From Sulfolobus acidocaldarius DSM 639 (GTDB taxonomy: Archaea > Thermoproteota > Thermoprotei_A > Sulfolobales > Sulfolobaceae): a stretch of DNA of 32,000 nt. Under the pieces are notes generated by a model. That model had not been told where the DNA came from and did not search any database. It saw nothing but the letters and a program-made list of their open reading frames with translations. Shown here piece by piece: positions 9,588 through 31,892 of this stretch (positions within the stretch are counted from its first letter, which is position 1; each line of letters begins with the position of its first letter). The stretch lies in assembly GCF_000012285.1 (NCBI RefSeq), contig NC_007181.1, positions 150,001 through 182,000 on the forward strand, read 5' to 3'. The position numbers and the translations under genes were made by a program.

Positions 9588-9624
9588 GCAAGGACTCCCC
9601 TTTTAATCTCAGTAGAATTTGTCA

Positions 9625-10275
9625 ATGAAATTGCCAGCATTACTCCCTATTTCTCTTTTTATAACTATCCTAATCCCACTCTGCATTTTTTCGATTGTCA
9701 CAGAGTCTTCAGTACATACTCTAGAGATCCTAATAAACGGTCCCTTACAGGTAACTATAACGCAGGGAAATAATTTCACTGTAATTAGCAAAACTACCTC
9801 ATTGAGATTACAGGGTAATATAACTATTCAAGCATCAACCCTTCAACCTGGATACCAGATATTCATTAATGGCATCAAGGCAAATACGCTAACCCTCAAT
9901 TCTTCATTGTATGATTTGATAAACGTGACCGCTGTCCCCACATATGTGGATCTTAAGGTAATTGTAAATAATGGTTCCAATGTACAAATAAGATTCGATA
10001 ACGGATCCTACATTAGTATAAAATCAAGTTCGCAATTCCTTGTAAGAAATGACTCTTATGTCTACATTACTACCCCAATAGGATCAAACAGTATTATAAA
10101 CAATGTCTCCACGAACTTTTACATACTATTTGTGACCAATGACTCAGTTGTAAATGTCACATTCGTGAAATCTCATGAATTAAACTCAAGCTCTTCTCCA
10201 TCGGTGGATTTGTTAGGTGTAGGCTTAGGGGTTATGGCGTTAGCCATCTATTTGATTATAAAGAGAAGGCAATAA
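9625..10275 (+). CDS. Secreted, C-terminally membrane-anchored protein rich in N-glycosylation sequons
   Basis: It has an N-terminal hydrophobic signal/TM segment, a C-terminal TM (LLGVGLGVMALAIYLII) followed by KRRQ, and 11 N-x-S/T sequons. ATG 9625 is preferred over the TTG at 9619. Confidence 0.6.
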   Translation: MKLPALLPISLFITILIPLCIFSIVTESSVHTLEILINGPLQVTITQGNNFTVISKTTSLRLQGNITIQASTLQPGYQIFINGIKANTLTLNSSLYDLINVTAVPTYVDLKVIVNNGSNVQIRFDNGSYISIKSSSQFLVRNDSYVYITTPIGSNSIINNVSTNFYILFVTNDSVVNVTFVKSHELNSSSSPSVDLLGVGLGVMALAIYLIIKRRQ

Positions 10276-13719: not shown

Positions 13720-14668
13720 GGTTCGAAGAGAGGTAAGTGGAAATCAAGGGGGCTTCGCTTCCGTAATTATTCCTGTTAGAGGTTTGGATGTAAACGCAGA
13801 GGAAAACCTCAAATCCCTTTTATCACAGGATTATTCAGCATATGAGGTAATCTATGTAGTCGATGACGAAAATGATCCCATAGTTCCTATCCTTAGGAAA
13901 TACAACGTGAAAGTTGTTGTAAGTAATAAAAACTGTGACATATGTAGTGGGAAAATAAATGCCCAGTTAGAGGGACTAAAACACGCAAGAGGGGATATAA
14001 TAGTATTTGCCGATTCAGATACATGGTTCCCTAAGTATTGGCTAAAAGAACTAGTATCCCCATTATCTAACTATGTTGCAACAACGGTGTTTTCATGGGC
14101 AAAGCCTGTTAGGCTTACAATCGGTAATATAATAAGGGCGGGATTTTGGACCTTAGGGTTCGAGAGCCAGGCTGTAGGGGGAACATTCCTTTGGGGAGGG
14201 TCTATGGCTTTCAAAAGGGAATTCTTCGACGAGAGGGTAATTCAGGAGTTAAAAACTCAGTGGTGCGATGATTGTACCTTAACAAGGATAGCCAAAGAAA
14301 GAGGAAAATTAGGTTTTGTATTCAACGCAATGCCGTTAAATTTCTACGACGAAACCCAATTGATAACATGGAGTAAAAGGCAACTAATAACAGTGTGGAG
14401 ATACTCAAGGAGGGGAGTCAATGGATTTATAATTGTAGCAATCTTCATGCTAGCTTTTCTCTTCTTGATACCCTTCAACGTATTTGCAATAACTCCCTTC
14501 ATCTTTTGGGTTTTTAAAAATATTTTGAGAAGTTATAAGATAGGTCTGTCCAATTCAATAATTCCTTCATTAGCCTCGATATTAGCAATATTTTACTCAT
14601 TGTTCTTAATCGCCTTAACTTTAAGAGAAAAGAATATTATATGGAGAGGTAAAATTTATAAAGTGTGA
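13640..14668 (+). CDS. Family-2 glycosyltransferase, membrane-bound (ceramide-glucosyltransferase-like topology)
   Basis: N-terminal TM, then SVIIPVRG, VDDENDP and FADSD (DxD) motifs, followed by C-terminal TM helices. The only start that retains the N-terminal TM is ATG 13640, which lies inside nucS. Confidence 0.8.
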   Translation: MLIFLISSAIVLLADLLITYQIYREIKVRREVSGNQGGFASVIIPVRGLDVNAEENLKSLLSQDYSAYEVIYVVDDENDPIVPILRKYNVKVVVSNKNCDICSGKINAQLEGLKHARGDIIVFADSDTWFPKYWLKELVSPLSNYVATTVFSWAKPVRLTIGNIIRAGFWTLGFESQAVGGTFLWGGSMAFKREFFDERVIQELKTQWCDDCTLTRIAKERGKLGFVFNAMPLNFYDETQLITWSKRQLITVWRYSRRGVNGFIIVAIFMLAFLFLIPFNVFAITPFIFWVFKNILRSYKIGLSNSIIPSLASILAIFYSLFLIALTLREKNIIWRGKIYKV

Positions 14669-15033
14669 ATAAGTGGAGATTGCTACTGATAATTGGAGTT
14701 TCCTTATTATTAATTGGAGTGGCTCTAGGAGATTTCATACTTTCTCAATCACTAAAGGAAATTGGCATACCACCAACATCCTCATATACAGTGAATAAGG
14801 GTTTAGTTTTAGTAGAAAACCAACAACTCGCCGCTTCTCCTAATAATCAAGTTCCCATAACAATTACCAGCCTGACTACGGATTACACTATAGTAAATTC
14901 CATGACGTCTGTGAAATCAATTACTATAATACAGTATCCACCACTACTTAATATCATATTTGGGATAATTATTGTAAGTTTAATAATAGTTCTAGTAGCT
15001 GGTCTAGTGATTTTATATAATAAACTTAAATAA
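14665..15033 (+). CDS. Small membrane protein (N- and C-terminal TM helices)
   Basis: The GTG start overlaps the GT2 stop (GTGTGA). It has two hydrophobic helices flanking a Ser/Thr/Asn-rich loop. Confidence 0.5.
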   Translation: MNKWRLLLIIGVSLLLIGVALGDFILSQSLKEIGIPPTSSYTVNKGLVLVENQQLAASPNNQVPITITSLTTDYTIVNSMTSVKSITIIQYPPLLNIIFGIIIVSLIIVLVAGLVILYNKLK

Positions 15034-15122: not shown

Positions 15123-15578
15123 TTAACTCTTTTTACTCTCTAATGTGACCTCCTCTGCTATTCTAAAAAGATCCGGATATATCTCTCTCAGTCCACGCTC
15201 TAAGGCGTCCTTTGCAATCTTACTCATTTTAAATCCAGGAACTGTATGATACAAGTACTGTAGCACAAGAAAAGACGGATAACTCCATATCCCTATTTTA
15301 GGATCCCTATCTATGAACTTTTTCATTATTCCCTTTATGTTATCCACCTTGACCTCTGAATTTGAGTTTGGACTACTCTTCACTTCCTCTAAATCTTCCC
15401 TAGGGCTTTTTGAAGCGTCATTCTCATTAACCTTTTCCTGGGTTTCACTAGTTTTGGTCTCTGCTAATTTCTGGGTAGTAGACTTGGAAGTCTCCTGTCT
15501 GGACTCAACTTTCTGTTCACTAGCCTCTACTTTCTGTTCAGTCTTTTTTCTGTTTAAGATTAAGTCTAACTCACTCAT
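15123..15578 (-). CDS. segB: SegB-like DNA-binding partner of SegA (archaeal chromosome segregation)
   Basis: It follows segA directly with an ATGA overlap, as I remember for the Sulfolobus segAB operon. It has a low-complexity charged N-terminal half and a structured C-terminal half (IGIWSYPSFLVLQYLYH...AKDALERGLREIYPDL). Confidence 0.7.
   Translation of the reverse strand: MSELDLILNRKKTEQKVEASEQKVESRQETSKSTTQKLAETKTSETQEKVNENDASKSPREDLEEVKSSPNSNSEVKVDNIKGIMKKFIDRDPKIGIWSYPSFLVLQYLYHTVPGFKMSKIAKDALERGLREIYPDLFRIAEEVTLESKKS
15508..15540 (-). repeat. Tandem 21-nt (7-aa) duplication inside segB
   Basis: ACTTTCTGTTCA occurs at 15508-15519 and again at 15529-15540. It encodes EQKVEAS/EQKVESR. 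Confidence 0.8.
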
Positions 15579-22651: not shown

Positions 22652-23464
22652 TCAAAGTCCAGGCATCTTGGAGAGTAAACCATCTACTATAATTTTCTTG
22701 TTTTTATTATTTATAAATCCTGTTTTGTAATCATAGTATAACTCAGCTTTACTTGTAGAATCTACAACATCACCATTTAGTATATCATTCTTACTCGCCT
22801 TTCCCTCTAAAATCCTGTACGTTAATTCCTCCTTGTCTCTAGTTATTAGTACCCTATTTTTGAGGGGGTATACGTTATTGGCAATTATACCTGCAAGGAT
22901 ATATGAACTCGAAGTGGGAGACAAGTTTACTATGACAGGTTTTTTAGACTCTAAAGTCTCTGTTACATTCCTAAAATCAGTGTAAATATTTCTCTTCTTC
23001 TCGACGTTAACAGGTAATCCTTTGTTAAATTCAACTATAATATCCTCCTCATCCCTTCTAGCTATTGACGACTCTAGTTCAGAGTAACTTGAATAGGGCA
23101 TAAAAGTGTATCTTACTTTACCCCTTAGTATCATGGCTTTAGGGGGTAACCAGTTATTTCTTACGAACGTGACCTCTACTTCCTCGCTAATGGGAACAGC
23201 ATAGTAAATGTATTCTACGTATTCATTATTATTCCAACCTAATACATTCTTGGCGTTCTTCACAAACTCCACACGACTAGTTCTAAATTTTTCAAATATT
23301 GGTCCTAATTTCTGATCCAGAGACTTAACTAGCTTTTTCAATATTTCGTCCTCTAGATAGAGAGATATTAATGGTACTAAGTCTAATTCTTCTGCGATTT
23401 TTAATGTTCTTTCGAATAAGTTTTTTATCTCATTCTTCGCGCTAAACAACTTTACTGAGTTCAT
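22652..23464 (-). CDS. Hypothetical 270-aa protein
   Basis: Long ATG-initiated ORF with normal composition. It lies 31 nt downstream of, and co-oriented with, the C-N hydrolase gene. I recognise no motif. Confidence 0.6.
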   Translation of the reverse strand: MNSVKLFSAKNEIKNLFERTLKIAEELDLVPLISLYLEDEILKKLVKSLDQKLGPIFEKFRTSRVEFVKNAKNVLGWNNNEYVEYIYYAVPISEEVEVTFVRNNWLPPKAMILRGKVRYTFMPYSSYSELESSIARRDEEDIIVEFNKGLPVNVEKKRNIYTDFRNVTETLESKKPVIVNLSPTSSSYILAGIIANNVYPLKNRVLITRDKEELTYRILEGKASKNDILNGDVVDSTSKAELYYDYKTGFINNKNKKIIVDGLLSKMPGL

Positions 23465-23495: not shown

Positions 23496-24212
23496 TCATT
23501 TTAGTTCGGTAATTTCGAAATTTCTATATTCCTTTAGTCTTTCTAATCTCATATTCACAAAGTCCAACGGATTCACATCAACAACCATGTAACTCTCGCT
23601 CGAGTCTAGTTCTCCGAGCACATAAGGATAAACAAACCTACCTTGAAACTTAGGCACATAAACTATACTTTTTCCTGGAAAATCTGGGGGAAAAATTGCG
23701 TTTGAGTTTATTATTGCAATTCTATTCTCTAGAACTCTAGTCCTTAAATACTCCCTCCACAAGTCTATTCCGTCTGTGGGAATTTTTGAGGGAACTAAAA
23801 CTATCTCCACACCCTTTAAGAACATACTTCGTATTACCTCTGGGAAGTCAGCATCATAACAAATTACTACACCTATCTTGATCCCCCTAAAATTAAACAT
23901 TGTGGTGAAAGTTCCTGGGAGGAGTCTTTTACTCTCCTCCAAAAACAAATGGATCTTCTTCGCTATTCCTTTTACTTCACCGTCATAACTTATAATAGGC
24001 GAGATTATTGACACACCGTCCTCTACAGCACCTGGAATTATGTATGCAGTATACCTCTTGGCTAAATTTCGTAAGTCTTCCAGTGGTAGCTCATCCAGTG
24101 TTTTTACCCATTTTTCAGGTAATAGCACTACTTCAGCTCCTTCTCTCAACGCGTTCTCTGTTAACTCTAATGCTAATCCTTTTTTATTTACCTGAACTAT
24201 ACCAAACTTCAA
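23496..24212 (-). CDS. Carbon-nitrogen hydrolase (nitrilase superfamily)
   Basis: Glu (VVLLPEKW), Lys (GIAKKIHLF) and Cys (GVVICYDADFPE) match the E-K-C catalytic-triad context. The TTG start overlaps the stop of the CBS gene (TTGA). Confidence 0.82.
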   Translation of the reverse strand: MKFGIVQVNKKGLALELTENALREGAEVVLLPEKWVKTLDELPLEDLRNLAKRYTAYIIPGAVEDGVSIISPIISYDGEVKGIAKKIHLFLEESKRLLPGTFTTMFNFRGIKIGVVICYDADFPEVIRSMFLKGVEIVLVPSKIPTDGIDLWREYLRTRVLENRIAIINSNAIFPPDFPGKSIVYVPKFQGRFVYPYVLGELDSSESYMVVDVNPLDFVNMRLERLKEYRNFEITELK

Positions 24213-25342
24213 ATCTCTTCTGCCTTGGGTTTTCTCCTTTTGCTCTCCATTTTTCTCGATGTCTTAATCACTCTGTCCTCTAACTTCTCCACTGCTTTCC
24301 TTAACGCAGTTATTGGATCCCAGTCTCTTTCCTTTGCAATGAATTCACCCATCTTGGTGGAAACCCTAGCGGTGACTTGGTAGACTTTCTTATTATTTTC
24401 GCTTTTTGCCTCCTCCTTAAAGGCGACCTTAAAATCAAGAATTTCAGTCAATCTTTCCAGTTTAGCTAAATACCTCTCTAAGATGGAGTCTATTATTGCC
24501 CTTGAATTGCCCTCCTTAAGTTCACCAGTTAACTTAGCCTCTATCGGCATAGAAAGTTCGAATTTCCTTGCAATAACTTTAAGCGCATCAATTCCGCTAA
24601 ACATTCCCACAATCATGTTACCTTCTAGTACTGGCATACCTGATATCTTTCTGGTGAGTAGAGTATTCACTGCAGAGTGAAGATTCTCTGCTCCATTTAC
24701 AGTTATTACGGGGTAGTTCATTATTTCCTTTATCGGCATTGCCATTAATCTCTCTTCCTCAGTAAGTATGGAGGACTTCTTCTTTCCGCTAATGCTGTAT
24801 AATCTGTTCAGTATATCCCTGGCACTGATAATTCCTGCAACTTCTTTACCTTGTATAACAGGGAGTTTTGTTATGTTATTGTTACTCATTAACCACCTAG
24901 CTCTAGCCACTGAATCTTCCGCGTCTATAGTTATTGCAGGGGAGTTCATCACTTCCCTGACTTTCGCCTTTTTGAACTCCTCCTCATTTAAGAACTGTAA
25001 CAGTACTCTCTCCCGTGTAACTATACCTGTAAACCTCTTCTTCTCGTCAATAACTGGAATCGCTCTACTTCGTGTGGTGTAAAATTTTGCTATGACTCTT
25101 CCAATATCATCATTTAGATTTACTGAAATTGGAGGGCTCATGAGATTTACGACTTTAGATTCAGGACTAATTCTCTTCTTTAACAAGTCATTGTAACTAA
25201 TTATACCAACTAATAACTTCTCTTTCAGAACTGGTACAACCCATTGGTTTTGCTCCCTCATTTTACTAATAACTTCCCTTATCCTATCACCATAAGTTGC
25301 GATAACTTTCGGTTCCTCTAGTAGATTAGATAAGCTCATCAT
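24209..25342 (-). CDS. Four-CBS-domain protein with C-terminal HPF/YfiA-like (ribosome-hibernation-factor-like) module
   Basis: Four CBS repeats at approximately aa 5-55, 63-118, 127-183 and 203-258. The C-terminal about 115 aa follow the beta-alpha-beta-beta-beta-alpha pattern of S30AE/HPF proteins and end in a basic tail (see finding). Confidence 0.85.
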   Translation of the reverse strand: MMSLSNLLEEPKVIATYGDRIREVISKMREQNQWVVPVLKEKLLVGIISYNDLLKKRISPESKVVNLMSPPISVNLNDDIGRVIAKFYTTRSRAIPVIDEKKRFTGIVTRERVLLQFLNEEEFKKAKVREVMNSPAITIDAEDSVARARWLMSNNNITKLPVIQGKEVAGIISARDILNRLYSISGKKKSSILTEEERLMAMPIKEIMNYPVITVNGAENLHSAVNTLLTRKISGMPVLEGNMIVGMFSGIDALKVIARKFELSMPIEAKLTGELKEGNSRAIIDSILERYLAKLERLTEILDFKVAFKEEAKSENNKKVYQVTARVSTKMGEFIAKERDWDPITALRKAVEKLEDRVIKTSRKMESKRRKPKAEEI

Positions 25343-25362
25343 GGAAAAATCCTCGTGTACAC

Positions 25363-25370
25363 TTATATAG
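25363..25370. promoter_or_regulatory. Single central TATA element (TTATATAG) shared by divergent genes
   Basis: Its centre is about 24.5 nt from ATG 25342 (minus strand) and about 26.5 nt from ATG 25393 (plus strand). The palindrome GTGTACAC abuts it at 25355-25362. Confidence 0.45.
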
Positions 25371-25392
25371 TTTTTGATATATATTAAAATTC

Positions 25393-26433
25393 ATGAATGT
25401 TGCATTTCTATGGGATTATGATTATTTAAAGTATTCATTTCCAGGAAATCATCCTTTTAAGGCTTTAAGGGAAACTATGGCAAAGAAGATCTTAGAGGAG
25501 AGAGGAGCATTCCATTACATGGATGTAATAAAACCTGATTTAATAAGTGAGGAGGACTTACTTAAGGTTCACTCAAGAGATTATATCCAGCTGGTGAAAA
25601 AGAAGAGTGAGGAGGGAACAGGATATTTAGACGATGGGGATACCCCTGCATTTAAAGGAATGTATGAGGGTGCACTATCTAGAACGAGCGGGACTGTAAC
25701 TACTATAAAACTCTTGGACAAGTATGATGTTGTGTTCAATATAGGAGGAGGCTTTCATCACGCAAAGTACTCCTCTGCCTCAGGCTTTTGTGTATTCAAT
25801 GATGTCGCATTAGCTATCAAGATAGCTCAGGAGAAATATAATAGAATTGCACTAATCGATATTGACGGTCATCACGGTGATGGAACCCAGTATATGCTAT
25901 TTGATGACCCGAACTCACTTAAGATCTCTCTTCATATGTATCACAGGGGCTTCTTCCCAGGAACTGGTAACTATGACGAAATAGGAAGGGGAAGAGGTGA
26001 GGGTTTAGTATTGAATGTTCCTTTACCACCAGGTACTGGGGATAAGGAATACCTTAAGGCTTTCACAGAAACAGTTATACCTAAGGTGGAGTCGTATAAA
26101 CCTGATTTAATCATAATATTAAATGGAGGCGATTCTCATTTCACTGACCCATTGGTGGAACTTAAGTTAACCAACAAAGGATATGTTGACGTAATTTCTT
26201 TATTAAAAGATCTCGCACAGAGATTTAAGAGCAAGATTGTGATGACAGGCGGTGGTGGGTACAGCTATGAAGCCACAGCTAAAATTTGGGTACTGTCAAT
26301 AGCGACATTAGCAGAGTTAGGTTTAAGTGATTATGAGGACTTAGAAGACCCCTCATACACTGTATCGTCTGATTTTGTAGTAAAGAAAGTGAATGAGGTT
26401 GTGGAAAAAATAAAGGGTATACACGGTTTATGA
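25393..26433 (+). CDS. Histone-deacetylase-family (AcuC/acetylpolyamine amidohydrolase-like) zinc deacetylase
   Basis: GGGFHHA and [11 protein letters not shown] motifs, later GGDSH and GGGGY. Confidence 0.9.
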
Positions 26434-27637: not shown

Positions 27638-28252
27638 TTAAGCCCGGTTAAAAACTTTAACCCAGTCTACAAATCTTTTTACATCACTAAGTAAATAATA
27701 AAAACACCTCCATCTCCTAACTTTGCATTCACCACTCCAAGGAAAGACCACCGCACCGATGTCGTATATCTTCTCATAATCTTCTATTTGTTCGTAACTG
27801 TAATAACCTGTCTTAGCCTCAATTGCTATTTTGTTTTCCACCAAGAAATCAGGCTTGTTGTGTGTCTTTGCACCAAGCTTAGGCAAGGATAGAACCCTTT
27901 TATCGTTATTTCTCTCTACTCTGAGACCTGTATTTAATAACTGGTTATACACATAATCTTCAAACACTAGTCCTATTAGTTGATTTAATTTCAGTATTCT
28001 GGTCTTTATGTCAGGGTAAGCTAACGCATAATTTTCATCAACATTTATTCCTATTTTAGTCGTAATTTCCCTAAGCCTGTTTAAAAGGACTCTCTCTTGA
28101 CCAAGTGGTTTGAACTGAAATTTTTTCAATTCAACACCATTCTCAAAAACCTTAACCATTAGATTTTCAACTGTTACGATCACGTTACCATCGTTCTCCG
28201 CAGGTACTAATGTACCATCTGGCAATTTTTTGTATAAAAATACGCTTACCAC
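27638..28252 (-). CDS. Hypothetical protein with C-terminal PD-(D/E)xK nuclease-like core
   Basis: Pattern FEDYVYNQLLNTGLRV...KPDFLVENKIAIEAKTGY, i.e. E...PD...E-x-K. GTG start. It ends 13 nt upstream of the purT start on the same strand. Confidence 0.55.
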   Translation of the reverse strand: MVSVFLYKKLPDGTLVPAENDGNVIVTVENLMVKVFENGVELKKFQFKPLGQERVLLNRLREITTKIGINVDENYALAYPDIKTRILKLNQLIGLVFEDYVYNQLLNTGLRVERNNDKRVLSLPKLGAKTHNKPDFLVENKIAIEAKTGYYSYEQIEDYEKIYDIGAVVFPWSGECKVRRWRCFYYLLSDVKRFVDWVKVFNRA

Positions 28253-28295: not shown

Positions 28296-28952
28296 GTGAT
28301 AATGATTATTACTTATAGTGACGTAGTATGGGGCTTAATTTTAGTGGCATGGGTAGCCTTTGTCACCTTATACTTGTCTAAGCTAATTAATAAGTACACG
28401 AACACTTACGTAACAAGGAAAGCTATACATATTTTAGGAGGCGGAGTTGTGGCAGTGGTTTCACAATTCTTGTTCTCTTCACCATTGGTTCCCATAATAG
28501 CCTCCTATGCAATCATGATCTACCTTATAGTCCATAGGACTAGGCAGAAGATGTTAAACTGGTTCCAGGATGAGGGAGATAGGGGTGAAGTATACTTCTC
28601 CTTTTCATTTGGTACAGTTCTTCTCATAATGTGGTTGATTGAGCCTACGTTCTGGAGTAGTCCACTTAAATTCGTTCCCTTCCTCCCACTTTACTACATG
28701 AGTTTTGGTGATGGTATAACTGGGATAATCAGGAACTACGTGTATAGGAGAAGATTTAAGGGGTTTTGGGGTAGCGTAGGTATGTTTTTATTCTGTGTTC
28801 CTCTAGGTTACTTGATCTACGGAATACCTGGTATGATCTCAGGAGTTATAGCTACTATAGTTGAGACTTTGCCCTACATAGACGACAATATATCTGTTCC
28901 ATTCATATCATTCATTTTCCTTTACATTGCTGTAAAATTCCTCTATATTTAA
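28296..28952 (+). CDS. Polytopic membrane protein of the dolichol/phytol-kinase (CTP_transf_1-like) family
   Basis: Motifs [32 protein letters not shown] and [14 protein letters not shown] resemble the SRKxxH / GDxxAxxxG / KxxEGS / DN..vP motifs of CTP-dependent polyprenol kinases. The start is GTG 28296 or ATG 28302. Confidence 0.6.
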
Positions 28953-29543
28953 ATAGCTCTTAGGGTCTATTATCTTTATATCTAAGTTCTTTGTATTAAT
29001 CGTGATAATTCCATTTAATCTACACACCTTGACGTCATTTAGGGTGATGTCTGGTGACTTTGTGTATTTTCTAATAAGCATCATAATTTTTCTAACGTCG
29101 CTTTCGCTTCTCTGCTCTGGGTTAATAAGAAGTTCCCTGGGTACTGGAGGTATGTAAAATGATGGCACTGCTATGTAAAATTGTTGAGCAATGTTACTGT
29201 ATCTCACAGTCTTTGAGGCTATCCTACTCATTAGATATTCTTCAGCTAGGAATATATTTGTGGGAGGCACATAACCAGTTTCGACCTCTATGGACATATC
29301 TACCCCCTTTATGGCATATATGTCCGTAATTCCCCCGGGTACTTCCACCTCAGTGTAAACTTTGAAACCCTTATTAACAAGGTAGGCGGAGAGGATTAGT
29401 TCAAGGACTAGATGGCTAGAGTTTACTATACTAGCCTTGTTAAGAGATAATAGTTTCTTGAATATGTTTTCTAAGTCTTCACTCCCTCCAAACTTCTCGT
29501 TTACTCTTTTGTAAATCTCATAAAATTGTTTCATTTTTATCAC
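28908..29543 (-). CDS. Hypothetical protein with N-terminal PD-(D/E)xK-like (Hjc-like) core, variant E-V-E
   Basis: Pattern [20 protein letters not shown]...[22 protein letters not shown]. The start is GTG 29543 or ATG 29534. Its 3' end overlaps the convergent membrane-protein gene by 45 nt. Confidence 0.55.
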
Positions 29544-29631: not shown

Positions 29632-30072
29632 ATGCTAAGTTGGATAATTGGCTCTCCAGCACCGCCTTGGCATTACCTAAGAGATATGTTTGAGGACTAT
29701 AATAACGTTGGAGTCTATGTTGACAGTAAGGGAAATATTCAGTTAATTAAAGTGAGTGAATTCGATGAATTTCATATAACAACTTCTGTTCTAATAAGTG
29801 GGTATCACTTACTAACCTTAAAGCCCTATTACATTAAACTAAGGAAATATGTTGCGTTTACCACAACAAGGCTAAATGTCGTTAAAGAATTGATTAAGAA
29901 CAGAAACTGGAGGAGTATGGAGTATTATTACGGAGATGAATTCGTTTACGCGTGGGTCATATACAGTTGTGAGATGTGCGAGGAAAAGCAGAGATTACAC
30001 CTTGAGGTTAATGAGGAGAAATTGAATGATGATGAACTCTTGAGTAAGCACCTTGAAATCTATAATTCATGA
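29632..30072 (+). CDS. Hypothetical 146-aa protein
   Basis: ATG-initiated ORF with ordinary composition and no recognised motif (a single CEMC pair). Its 3' end overlaps the convergent FAD oxidoreductase gene by 13 nt. Confidence 0.5.
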   Translation: MLSWIIGSPAPPWHYLRDMFEDYNNVGVYVDSKGNIQLIKVSEFDEFHITTSVLISGYHLLTLKPYYIKLRKYVAFTTTRLNVVKELIKNRNWRSMEYYYGDEFVYAWVIYSCEMCEEKQRLHLEVNEEKLNDDELLSKHLEIYNS

Positions 30073-31094: not shown

Positions 31095-31892
31095 GTGATC
31101 ACCGAGGGTTACTTCGTTAAGTACGATGGCGTTTATTGGGCTGTTAAAGGATGCTTTCATCCACAAGGTTATGTCGTAGGTATACCTAGGTTGTATAAAG
31201 GCGAGAAGATTAAGAGGTATAATGATGCCATGAATATCGTAAGAAGGGATTTTCCGCATTTACTACGATACGTTGAGGAGATAGGTGCCGAAGTTCCTTT
31301 AATACCCCTTAAGGGCTCTGAGGTGCTAGATCCTTTTGACCTCAAGAAGGTGACAGATCCTAAGGTTAAGTACTTTATATCACTATTCAGACATGTGGGA
31401 ATTACGGGAAGTTTACTCTATTTTAAAGGCAAGAACTTTAACGATATTGATTTACTTTCATTTGACATAGGGAACTATGAGATACTCAGGGAGCTCAGAA
31501 AAGCTGGGATAACTAAGTCACTGAGTTCCTTCAACCAAGGAGAGGTTGAAATATTAAACTCTCATGACTTTAATCTGCTAAAAAGGGAGAGGGTTTTGGA
31601 AGGCATATTTCATGATATCCCTTATACTTTTAAGATAGTTGAGTGTGAGGATTTCGGAAAAGTAAAAAGAGTGGAGAAATTTGAGGGGAAGGTAACTATA
31701 GACAAAACCTTGAAACCCTATTCTTTACCGGTAAAGTACCTAACTGATACCGGTCATGTTTTGACGTCTTTTAGGACAAGGTTCACAGAGTTAAAGGAAG
31801 GATTAGAGCTTTATGTGGATGGTTTCTTGCTAGAAAGAGATAAATTCAGTGATATTGATTTAGACATAGCCCGAAAGGTGGAAATTCTTTGA
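31095..31892 (+). CDS. Predicted Pol-beta-type nucleotidyltransferase-domain protein with beta-rich C-terminal domain
   Basis: GITGSLLYFKGKNFNDIDLL fits the G-S-x(n)-D-x-D minimal nucleotidyltransferase signature. GTG start. Confidence 0.55.
   Translation: MITEGYFVKYDGVYWAVKGCFHPQGYVVGIPRLYKGEKIKRYNDAMNIVRRDFPHLLRYVEEIGAEVPLIPLKGSEVLDPFDLKKVTDPKVKYFISLFRHVGITGSLLYFKGKNFNDIDLLSFDIGNYEILRELRKAGITKSLSSFNQGEVEILNSHDFNLLKRERVLEGIFHDIPYTFKIVECEDFGKVKRVEKFEGKVTIDKTLKPYSLPVKYLTDTGHVLTSFRTRFTELKEGLELYVDGFLLERDKFSDIDLDIARKVEIL

What the first reader, a model, noticed from the sequence alone, without database searches (positions are those of the whole stretch)
24209..25342. Four CBS domains fused to an HPF/YfiA-like module: a candidate energy-sensing ribosome hibernation factor in an archaeon
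Seen directly: four tandem CBS repeats are followed by an about 115-aa C-terminal module (aa about 262-377, nt 24209-24559). Its elements are MPIEAKLTGELKEGN (strand), SRAIIDSILERYLAKLERL (helix), ILDFKVAFKEE / KKVYQVTARVS / GEFIAKERD (three strands), WDPITALRKAVEKLEDRVIKTSRK (helix), then a basic tail KMESKRRKPK. This parallels bacterial HPF/YfiA/RaiA element for element. For comparison, E. coli HPF from memory: [80 protein letters not shown]. Established: HPF-family proteins occupy the small-subunit decoding region, and CBS pairs bind adenosyl ligands (AMP/ATP/SAM). Inference: the fusion could couple energy charge to ribosome silencing. HPF-type factors are not part of the classical picture of archaeal translation. 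I cannot tell from here whether this family has been characterised recently. The gene is leaderless-style and translationally coupled (TTGA) to a C-N hydrolase.
Basis: partly seen in the sequence, partly recalled or inferred. Interest (0 to 1): 0.78.

Follow-up and report, generated by a model that had tools for sequence, protein, structure and literature searches.

The report
Known archaeal ribosome hibernation factor HibA

Summary
ORF 24209-25342 (-) encodes 377 aa with four CBS motifs and a C-terminal domain. [quoted passage not shown]

The whole protein aligns collinearly with Pyrococcus abyssi HibA (PDB 9sr9_H, E 5.5e-25, 26 % identity). HibA has been seen by cryo-EM in the 30S mRNA/tRNA channel, with its CBS module on the 50S tRNA sites and peptidyl-transferase centre. 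The protein is exactly UniProt Q4JC48 of S. acidocaldarius, annotated only as "CBS domain protein".

The family is published as HibA/Hib (Nat Commun 2026), AHA (Haloferax volcanii preprint, seeded with a Saccharolobus orthologue) and "SriA-RaiA/HPF fusion". The energy-sensing step remains unproven even for the characterised members: AMP and ATP bind, yet no effect on ribosome binding was seen.

The lineage-specific context may be unreported. The stop/start overlap with a divergent C-N hydrolase is kept in 19 of 22 Sulfolobaceae loci. An HDAC-type deacetylase gene lies divergently upstream in 17.

The parts
24209..25342 (-). hibA/AHA-family gene (377 aa including the first Met; UniProt Q4JC48_SULAC, AAY79631.1). 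The end coordinate includes the TGA stop.
   Evidence: ORF. Exact match to S. acidocaldarius database entries. Gene call on CP046615.1. Full-length homology to P. abyssi HibA 9sr9_H, E 5.5e-25.
24557..25342 (-). N-terminal CBS tetrad (aa 1-262): CBS1 about aa 8-55, CBS2 about 62-119, CBS3 about 127-183, CBS4 about 204-260. By homology this is the 50S-binding and adenine-nucleotide-binding module.
   Evidence: Pfam CBS with 4 stretches, E 3.4e-39. AF2 model. Foldseek matches to MJ1225, SSO3205, ribosome-bound SriA/SriD and Dri, and AMPK-gamma. G170/D176 in CBS3 and G246/D252 in CBS4 are invariant across 33 homologues.
24740..24790 (-). Extended loop between CBS3 and CBS4 (aa 185-201, SGKKKSSILTEEERLMA). 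It is the positional equivalent of the HibA 'PTC loop' (Pa residues 190-207) and AHA 'loop 3', which insert into the peptidyl-transferase centre.
   Evidence: Aligned to Pa-HibA RFKAQYGELAGEKIPPFS. pLDDT is lower here, 62-76. It is the most conserved segment among Sulfolobaceae orthologues, 0.75 against 0.65 overall.
24236..24550 (-). [quoted passage not shown] By homology it is the 30S mRNA/tRNA-channel plug.
   Evidence: PF02482 above the gathering score. Profile hits to HibA, then to about 20 bacterial HPF/RaiA chains. AF2 topology. The Foldseek top 34 hits are all HPF/RaiA/YfiA/pY/RafH.
24209..24235 (-). Disordered charged C-terminal tail (aa 370-377, RKPKAEEI) plus the stop codon. [quoted passage not shown]
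   Evidence: pLDDT below 50 for aa 371-377. Statement about the Pa-HibA C-terminus from PMC13324472.
25363..25369 (.). TATATAA/TTATATA box in the 50-nt divergent intergenic region. It sits at -27..-21 from the hibA ATG and -30..-24 from the ATG of the divergent deacetylase gene. It is a candidate shared archaeal TATA element for two leaderless transcripts.
   Evidence: Read directly from the sequence. The identical element and spacing occur in the 70 %-identical RB850M locus. Inference only, with no TSS data.
23496..24212 (-). Co-directional C-N hydrolase (nitrilase-superfamily) gene, 238 aa, whose TTG start overlaps the hibA stop (TTGA). It is the likely second gene of a two-gene operon.
   Evidence: PF00795, E 3.5e-16. 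All NCBIfam hits are far below cut-offs. The best PDB relatives are PH0642 and P. abyssi nitrilase. The gene lies immediately downstream in 19 of 22 Sulfolobaceae-type loci, 17 of them with an NTGA overlap.
25393..26433 (+). Divergently transcribed HDAC/AcuC-type Zn-dependent deacetylase gene (346 aa). It is a conserved neighbour and not part of HibA itself.
   Evidence: PF00850, E 3.4e-81. PDB relatives are HDAC6, HDAC1/2 and HDLP. Present divergently upstream in 17 of 22 Sulfolobaceae-type loci.

Best explanation
The gene encodes the Sulfolobus acidocaldarius orthologue of the archaeal ribosome hibernation factor HibA (also called Hib or AHA).

[quoted passage not shown] The N-terminal CBS tetrad, tethered to it, occupies vacant tRNA sites on the 50S subunit. 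In one state it inserts the loop between CBS3 and CBS4 into the peptidyl-transferase centre. Because it bridges both subunits, it keeps an inactive 70S particle assembled, blocks translation, and shields functional rRNA sites from degradation until growth resumes.

The CBS3/CBS4 pair probably binds AMP more tightly than ADP or ATP. Whether this controls loading or release is not established.

Shown here: domain architecture, fold, homology, conservation and gene context. Inferred: ribosome binding, translation inhibition, nucleotide binding and physiological role in Sulfolobus.
For: Architecture: four CBS motifs plus PF02482 above the gathering threshold. 17 of 19 orthologous C-terminal domains hit PF02482 independently.

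Homology: full-length collinear match to Pa-HibA 9sr9_H (E 5.5e-25; 26 % identity over 353 columns). With the C-terminal profile alone, the best PDB hits are HibA (2.4e-9) and a second CBS-HPF fusion, 9l96_a (6.4e-8), followed by about 20 bacterial or plastid HPF/RaiA/pY chains.

[quoted passage not shown] The Foldseek top 34 PDB hits for the C-terminal model are all HPF/RaiA/YfiA/pY/RafH. The CBS tetrad matches ribosome-bound SriA/SriD and Dri, and AMPK-gamma.

Loop and ligand site: the CBS3-CBS4 loop is present (17 aa against 18 in Pa-HibA) and is the best-conserved segment in Sulfolobaceae. The G-x-x-S-x-x-D motifs of CBS3 and CBS4 are invariant across 33 homologues.

Published function of the family: PMC13324472, PMC12934967 and PMC13004131. 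The AHA survey used a Saccharolobus solfataricus orthologue as a search seed. The S. acidocaldarius genome is in the HibA survey database.

Selection: orthologues at 46-71 % identity occur throughout Sulfolobaceae.
Against: No experiment has been done on the Sulfolobus protein. No paper mentioning Q4JC48 or the guessed locus tags was found. Published S. acidocaldarius ribosome structures are cited only as tRNA-bound references.

Identity to the characterised members is low: 26 % to Pa-HibA and about 20 % to haloarchaeal homologues. The NCBIfam bacterial HPF/YfiA equivalog model is not reached, 26-30 bits against a cut-off of 40.9.

The loop sequence (KKKSSILTEEER) is unrelated in sequence to the Pa-HibA loop and is partly acidic, so PTC insertion is an extrapolation.

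For the regulatory step, the HibA authors saw no effect of AMP or ATP on ribosome occupancy or conformations.
Confidence: 0.88

Rival explanations
1. The protein is a HibA-type hibernation factor, but the CBS tetrad is not an energy sensor. It acts mainly as a bulky, loosely specific plug for vacant tRNA sites, and nucleotide binding is structural or irrelevant to ribosome binding. This would undercut the reader's 'energy-sensing' part only.
For: In P. abyssi, AMP or ATP at 5 mM did not change the classes or their distribution, apart from one weakly populated extra state. No nucleotide was seen in native complexes. Conserved CBS residues lie in the core rather than at ribosome contacts (PMC13324472).
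Against: AMP binds Pa-HibA with Kd 12 uM, more tightly than ADP or ATP. Two AMP molecules are seen in native H. volcanii AHA-ribosome complexes. The ribose-binding Asp motifs of CBS3 and CBS4 are invariant across very distant homologues, which argues for selection on ligand binding. In the related stand-alone CBS system ARC, ATP triggers release (abstract of 10.64898/2026.01.19.700304).
Confidence: 0.35
2. In Sulfolobaceae the protein works together with the translationally coupled C-N hydrolase, and perhaps with the divergently transcribed HDAC-type deacetylase, as a lineage-specific module. The enzyme might modify the ribosome, HibA or a small-molecule signal, or salvage nitrogen, as part of the dormancy programme.
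For: The C-N hydrolase lies immediately downstream in 19 of 22 Sulfolobaceae-type loci, 17 of them with an overlapping NTGA stop/start. The HDAC-like gene lies divergently upstream in 17 of 22. The hydrolase is a divergent nitrilase-superfamily member that fits no curated equivalog.
Against: The linkage is absent from the Ignisphaera/Desulfurococcaceae orthologues (0 of 8) and from three Sulfolobaceae-type loci. HibA from P. abyssi works alone in vitro. Conserved gene order within one family can be mere inheritance. PurT and DUF8278 are also syntenic there without any obvious link.
Confidence: 0.15
3. The protein is a CBS-domain metabolic or transcriptional regulator (like HhpR/CM-3, or AcuB next to AcuC) whose C-terminal alpha/beta domain binds something other than the ribosome.
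For: Databases annotate it as 'CBS domain protein' or 'histidine kinase'. CBS tetrads serve many functions, including the transcription factor HhpR. A CBS gene next to an HDAC/AcuC-like gene recalls acuB-acuC (my own knowledge). dsRBD folds appear as weak fold matches from rank 35.
Against: The best full-length PDB relative is HibA, including its C-terminal domain. The C-terminal fold matches are HPF/RaiA for the first 34 ranks. Pfam PF02482 is hit above threshold in 17 of 19 orthologues. HhpR-type proteins lack the HPF domain.
Confidence: 0.04

Closest known systems
HibA / Hib (Pyrococcus abyssi Q9UYR4, PDB 9sr9 series; Thermococcus barophilus F0LKU5), Madru et al., Nat Commun 2026 (PMC13324472)
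   Same: [quoted passage not shown] The length is similar (377 against 392 aa). The alignment is collinear over the full length, E 5.5e-25.
   Different: Only 26 % identical. The loop sequence is unrelated (SGKKKSSILTEEERLMA against RFKAQYGELAGEKIPPFS). The host is a crenarchaeal aerobic thermoacidophile, not a euryarchaeal anaerobe. The gene sits in a Sulfolobaceae-specific operon with a C-N hydrolase. Nothing has been tested experimentally.
AHA (Haloferax volcanii HVO_2384), Souza et al., bioRxiv 2026 (PMC12934967)
   Same: Same CBS-tetrad plus HPF fusion. The invariant ligand motifs in CBS3 and CBS4 correspond to the region where two AMP molecules were seen. Sulfolobales orthologues were part of that paper's family definition.
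   Different: Haloarchaeal homologues are about 20 % identical. They carry a roughly 25-residue longer CBS3-CBS4 loop and a longer C-terminal extension.
Bacterial HPF / RaiA (YfiA, protein Y) and plastid pY/PSRP1 (Pfam PF02482)
   Same: The C-terminal domain has the same fold and passes the Pfam gathering threshold. In the archaeal homologues it binds the equivalent 30S site.
   Different: It has no stand-alone or long-HPF architecture, and an N-terminal CBS tetrad takes the place of a C-terminal dimerisation domain. It scores below the NCBIfam HPF/YfiA equivalog cut-off. The published archaeal mechanism stabilises 70S particles rather than forming 100S dimers.
Dri (Pyrobaculum calidifontis, PDB 9e6q/9e7f) and SriA-D / ARC-A/P stand-alone CBS-tetrad hibernation factors
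   Same: The CBS tetrads are homologous, with a CBS3-CBS4 loop, and bind ribosomal tRNA and PTC sites.
   Different: These factors lack the HPF/RaiA domain. Dri has two CBS tetrads and binds the PTC in the opposite orientation. Sri and Hib are phyletically anti-correlated.
Eukaryotic AMPK-gamma / SNF4 adenylate sensor
   Same: CBS tetrad fold, with Foldseek E about 1e-16 and TM 0.66-0.72 normalised to the target. Adenine nucleotides bind at the CBS3/CBS4 sites in the archaeal homologue.
   Different: There are no kinase partner subunits, and the output is steric ribosome blockade rather than kinase regulation.

Membership tests
HibA / Hib / AHA (archaeal CBS-HPF hibernation factors) | N-terminal module of four tandem CBS motifs forming one compact CBS tetrad | tested here: met
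   Pfam CBS with 4 stretches, E 3.4e-39. AF2 shows four beta-alpha-beta-beta-alpha units at pLDDT mostly 85-95. Foldseek matches CBS tetrads with E down to 3e-21.
HibA / Hib / AHA (archaeal CBS-HPF hibernation factors) | [quoted passage not shown] | tested here: met
   PF02482 scores 29.7-32.3 bits against a gathering cut-off of 23.7, and 17 of 19 orthologues hit it. AF2 topology. The Foldseek top 34 hits are HPF/RaiA/YfiA/pY.
HibA / Hib / AHA (archaeal CBS-HPF hibernation factors) | Full-length collinear sequence homology to an experimentally characterised member | tested here: met
   9sr9_H (Pa-HibA) is the best PDB sequence hit, aa 23-362 against 25-372, E 5.5e-25. BLASTP gives 26 % identity, E 1e-26. 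The C-terminal profile alone still ranks HibA first.
HibA / Hib / AHA (archaeal CBS-HPF hibernation factors) | Extended loop between CBS3 and CBS4 (PTC loop / loop 3) | tested here: met
   aa 185-201 align to Pa-HibA 190-207. Confidence is lower in the model. It is the most conserved segment in Sulfolobaceae. Actual insertion into the PTC was not tested.
HibA / Hib / AHA (archaeal CBS-HPF hibernation factors) | Two archaeal-specific insertions in the HPF domain (beta1-alpha1 and beta2-beta3) | tested here: inconclusive
   The Pfam match starts only at profile position 17 and spans 79 residues for 71 profile positions. AF2 shows an extra short helix at 273-276 and an 8-residue beta2-beta3 loop. 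No residue-level structural superposition on Pa-HibA or E. coli RaiA was made.
HibA / Hib / AHA (archaeal CBS-HPF hibernation factors) | Adenine-nucleotide binding at the CBS3/CBS4 interface | not testable with these tools
   Indirect only: G170-x-x-S-x-x-D176 and G246-x-x-S-x-x-D252 are invariant in 33 homologues. ITC or a structure is needed.
HibA / Hib / AHA (archaeal CBS-HPF hibernation factors) | Binds the 30S mRNA/tRNA channel and the 50S tRNA sites, inhibits translation and preserves 70S particles in stationary phase | not testable with these tools
   Known for P. abyssi, T. barophilus and H. volcanii. No data were found for Sulfolobus.
Bacterial HPF/RaiA/YfiA (TIGR00741 equivalog) | Score above the NCBIfam equivalog cut-off for HPF/YfiA | tested here: not met
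   26.4 bits for the full protein and 29.6 bits for the domain alone, against a cut-off of 40.9. It is a homologous domain, not an equivalog of the bacterial protein.
Bacterial HPF/RaiA/YfiA (TIGR00741 equivalog) | Architecture: stand-alone roughly 100-aa domain (short HPF/RaiA), or N-terminal HPF plus a C-terminal dimerisation domain (long HPF) | tested here: not met
   The HPF-like domain is C-terminal to a 262-aa CBS tetrad, and only a 8-aa tail follows it.
Dri / Sri / ARC CBS-only hibernation factors | One or two CBS tetrads with no HPF/RaiA domain | tested here: not met
   This protein carries the HPF/RaiA domain. Dri and Sri chains match only the CBS part.

The most novel reading that the evidence does not exclude
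In Sulfolobaceae, HibA may not act alone. It could be the first cistron of a conserved, translationally coupled operon with a divergent nitrilase-superfamily C-N hydrolase, and it may share a bidirectional promoter with an HDAC/AcuC-type deacetylase. That would point to a lineage-specific enzymatic layer of ribosome hibernation that the published HibA/AHA work did not consider. Such a layer could involve deamidation or deacylation of ribosomal proteins, of HibA or of a signalling metabolite, or nitrogen salvage coupled to dormancy. Separately, the unusually conserved and partly acidic CBS3-CBS4 loop (KKxSILxEEER) might engage the Sulfolobus ribosome differently from the Pyrococcus PTC loop.
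Probability: 0.15. Interest if true: 0.55.

Novelty: already known. Interest (0 to 1): 0.2.

Why it matters
The family matters. [quoted passage not shown] That case has already been made in print (PMC13324472, PMC12934967, PMC13004131).

What this locus adds is modest. It gives a confidently assigned HibA orthologue in S. acidocaldarius, which to my knowledge is genetically tractable, and no experiment on the family in any crenarchaeon turned up in the papers I searched. The protein is still annotated only as 'CBS domain protein' or 'histidine kinase'. The locus also carries a conserved hibA-C-N hydrolase operon and a deacetylase neighbour that could guide follow-up experiments.

Tried and rejected
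1. NCBIfam. The bacterial HPF/YfiA equivalog TIGR00741 is hit but below its cut-off. I therefore do not file the protein as a bacterial-type HPF. The many CBS-containing NCBIfam hits (PrdR, CcpN, IMPDH and others) reflect only the CBS repeats and are all far below their cut-offs.

2. Full-length Foldseek against PDB. It returned only CBS tetrads and not the HibA entries. The library stops at 2026-04-08, and the CBS part dominates the score. I solved this by modelling and searching the C-terminal domain alone.

3. The search for related loci with the 33-sequence alignment failed because no conserved stretch was found. I repeated it with 12 Sulfolobaceae sequences. This reaches only Sulfolobales and Desulfurococcales relatives, so gene context in Thermococcales, haloarchaea and other lineages was not examined.

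4. Literature searches for Q4JC48, the guessed locus tags Saci_0210 to Saci_0213, and PDB 9L96 found nothing. The search for 'Sulfolobus acidocaldarius' plus 'hibernation' found no study of this gene.

5. Other CBS-module hibernation genes in the window. None was found. The other ORFs of 100 aa or more with a Pfam hit are housekeeping genes (shikimate pathway, XPD, SOD, NucS, 2-oxoacid:ferredoxin oxidoreductase, PurT and others), while about nine gave no Pfam hit and ORFs under 100 aa were not scanned.

6. A dsRBD-like reading of the C-terminal domain is rejected, because dsRBDs appear only from rank 35 with TM about 0.4.

7. A pseudogene or chance ORF is rejected, because orthologues at 46-71 % identity occur across the family.
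Full report
**Observation**

The window is Sulfolobus acidocaldarius DNA. The 377-aa product of ORF 24209-25342 (-) is identical to UniProt Q4JC48_SULAC / AAY79631.1, annotated 'CBS domain protein'. The same gene is called on chromosome CP046615.1.

Pfam finds four CBS stretches (E 3.4e-39). It also finds PF02482 Ribosomal_S30AE at aa 287-365, scoring 29.7 bits against a gathering cut-off of 23.7. The C-terminal 113 aa alone score 32.3 bits, E 1.7e-7. The match is robust, because 17 of 19 orthologous C-terminal domains hit PF02482 when scanned individually. Many orthologues already carry a precomputed PF02482 hit, and JGI even names some 'CBS domain-containing protein/ribosome-associated translation inhibitor RaiA'. 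The bacterial HPF/YfiA equivalog model of NCBIfam is hit only below its cut-off, 26-30 bits against 40.9.

**Structure**

An AlphaFold2 model built on 33 homologues has mean pLDDT 83.7. It shows four CBS units and a lower-confidence segment between CBS3 and CBS4. The C-terminal domain has a strand at 267-270, a helix at 273-298, strands at 301-311, 320-329 and 333-340, and a helix at 343-369.

The full-length model matches CBS tetrads: MJ1225, SSO3205, the ribosome-bound SriA/SriD and Dri, and AMPK-gamma. A separate model of the C-terminal domain has pLDDT 78.5. Its first 34 PDB matches are all HPF, RaiA/YfiA, plastid pY/PSRP1 or mycobacterial RafH chains, most of them ribosome-bound, with E down to 1.5e-5 and target-normalised TM up to 0.78. 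dsRBDs follow only from rank 35.

A sequence profile of the C-terminal domain gives the same answer. It ranks two archaeal CBS-HPF fusions first (9sr9_H at 2.4e-9 and 9l96_a at 6.4e-8), and then about 20 bacterial or plastid HPF/RaiA chains.

**What it is**

The best PDB sequence match of the whole protein is 9sr9 chain H, deposited as 'Dehydrogenase'. The match is collinear over aa 23-362 with E 5.5e-25, and 26 % identical by BLASTP. This chain is P. abyssi HibA. Madru et al. (PMC13324472) found it by cryo-EM in about three quarters of the hibernating-like 70S particles from stressed cells.

- Its HPF/RaiA-like C-terminal domain sits in the 30S mRNA/tRNA channel.
- Its CBS module takes three positions on the 50S subunit: the PTC, uL5 and the L1 stalk. 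In the PTC state a loop (residues 190-207) lies where the CCA ends of the A- and P-site tRNAs would sit.
- The recombinant protein reproduces these states and inhibits translation in extracts. It binds AMP (Kd 12 uM) more tightly than ADP or ATP.
- A T. barophilus deletion has about 60 % fewer 70S particles in stationary phase and a doubled lag.

Souza et al. (PMC12934967) independently described the H. volcanii homologue AHA. It has the same ribosome contacts, two AMP molecules at CBS3/CBS4 and a stationary-phase survival defect. They used a Saccharolobus solfataricus orthologue as one of their search seeds. Nissley et al. (PMC13004131) noted the same 'SriA-RaiA/HPF fusion' in 42 % of archaeal species. 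The S. acidocaldarius genome is in the HibA paper's survey database.

The window protein meets the family's sequence- and structure-level defining features, as listed in the membership table. This includes the CBS3-CBS4 loop: aa 185-201 align to the Pa-HibA PTC loop. It also includes invariant G-x-x-S-x-x-D motifs in CBS3 and CBS4 across 33 homologues. I therefore assign it to HibA/AHA with high confidence.

**Mechanism and what remains open**

By homology, the protein plugs the decoding channel with its HPF domain and the 50S tRNA sites and PTC with its CBS tetrad. This holds an inactive 70S particle together. These steps are inferred for Sulfolobus, since no experimental work on this gene was found.

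Nucleotides bind, yet AMP or ATP did not alter occupancy or conformations in P. abyssi. ATP-triggered release has been reported only for the distinct stand-alone CBS system ARC.

**Locus-specific findings**

I compared 22 distinct Sulfolobaceae-type loci with 46-100 % identical HibA.

- A 236-240-aa PF00795 C-N hydrolase lies immediately downstream in 19 of them.
- In 17 of those 19 the stop and start overlap as NTGA: TTGA in 13, ATGA in 3 and GTGA in 1.
- An HDAC/AcuC-type deacetylase gene (PF00850) lies divergently upstream in 17 of the 22.
- Neither gene accompanies the 8 Ignisphaera/Desulfurococcaceae-type orthologues, which are about 35 % identical.

The hydrolase fits no curated NCBIfam equivalog. 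Its nearest solved relatives are PH0642 and P. abyssi nitrilase. Neither HibA/AHA paper mentions operons or neighbours.

The 50-nt intergenic region holds one palindromic TATATA element. It sits at -27..-21 from the hibA ATG and -30..-24 from the deacetylase ATG. This is compatible with two leaderless divergent transcripts, but no TSS data were available. The start is ATGATG, and one strain's annotation uses the second Met, giving 376 aa.

Within Sulfolobaceae the CBS3-CBS4 loop is the best-conserved segment of the protein, with mean column identity 0.75 against 0.65 overall. Its motif is K-K/R-x-S-I-L/M-x-E-E-E-R. This contrasts with the HibA authors' remark that conserved residues lie mostly in the CBS core.

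**Verdict**

The family is already described by at least three groups, and the Sulfolobales orthologues fall within their surveys. Novelty is therefore 'already known', and interest is low at 0.2. The residual value lies in the unstudied Sulfolobaceae operon context and in having a model crenarchaeon in which to test the unresolved nucleotide-sensing step.

Noticed in passing
window 23496-24212 (-), junction at 24209-24212; also L002, L003, L005-L016, L018, L021-L024: The hibA stop overlaps the start of a divergent nitrilase-superfamily C-N hydrolase (TTGA here). The pair is conserved in 19 of 22 Sulfolobaceae-type loci, 17 of them with an NTGA overlap. It is absent from 8 Ignisphaera/Desulfurococcaceae-type loci and is not discussed in the HibA/AHA papers. 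The hydrolase matches no curated NCBIfam equivalog.
   Followed up: partly
window 25393-26433 (+) and intergenic 25343-25392: An HDAC/AcuC-type Zn deacetylase gene is divergently transcribed from hibA, in 17 of 22 Sulfolobaceae loci. The 50-nt spacer contains one palindromic TATATA (25363-25369), placed about 24-27 nt from both ATGs. This suggests a shared bidirectional TATA box and two leaderless mRNAs. A CBS gene next to an AcuC-like gene recalls Bacillus acuB-acuC (my own knowledge).
   Followed up: partly
window 25337-25342 (-): The start is ATGATG. Strain SUSAZ annotation uses the second Met (376 aa). Given the TATA position, either codon could be the leaderless start.
   Followed up: no
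window 24740-24790 (-), aa 185-201: The CBS3-CBS4 loop, equivalent to the PTC loop, is the most conserved segment among Sulfolobaceae orthologues. It carries an acidic EEER motif that is unrelated in sequence to the Pyrococcus loop.
   Followed up: partly
window 22652-23464 (-): A DUF8278 protein (270 aa; no Pfam hit in the local scan, PF26923 in the precomputed table) lies near the hibA operon in many Sulfolobaceae loci, in variable orientation. Its function is unknown.
   Followed up: no
PDB 9l96 chain a (not in the window): A 406-aa 'CBS domain-containing protein' present in four PDB entries (9l96, 9l98, 9l9c, 9l9v) is another CBS-HPF fusion, with E 6.4e-8 to the C-terminal profile. No paper citing it was found in the library.
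   Followed up: partly
L011 (JAFMDM010000086.1) and L017, L019, L020: A MAG labelled 'Methanobacteriota archaeon' carries a Sulfodiicoccus-like HDAC-hibA-CNH locus, which probably reflects mis-binning or a mislabelled taxonomy. Three Acd1-type Sulfolobales loci have hibA without the hydrolase or the deacetylase.
   Followed up: no
window 27638-28252 (-), 28296-28952 (+), 28908-29543 (-), 29632-30072 (+), 31095-31892 (+), 9619-10275 (+), 14665-15033 (+), 15123-15578 (-): Several ORFs of 120-265 aa have no Pfam match at E <= 0.001. The first four are syntenic with hibA/PurT in other Sulfolobaceae according to the gene-call tables.
   Followed up: no
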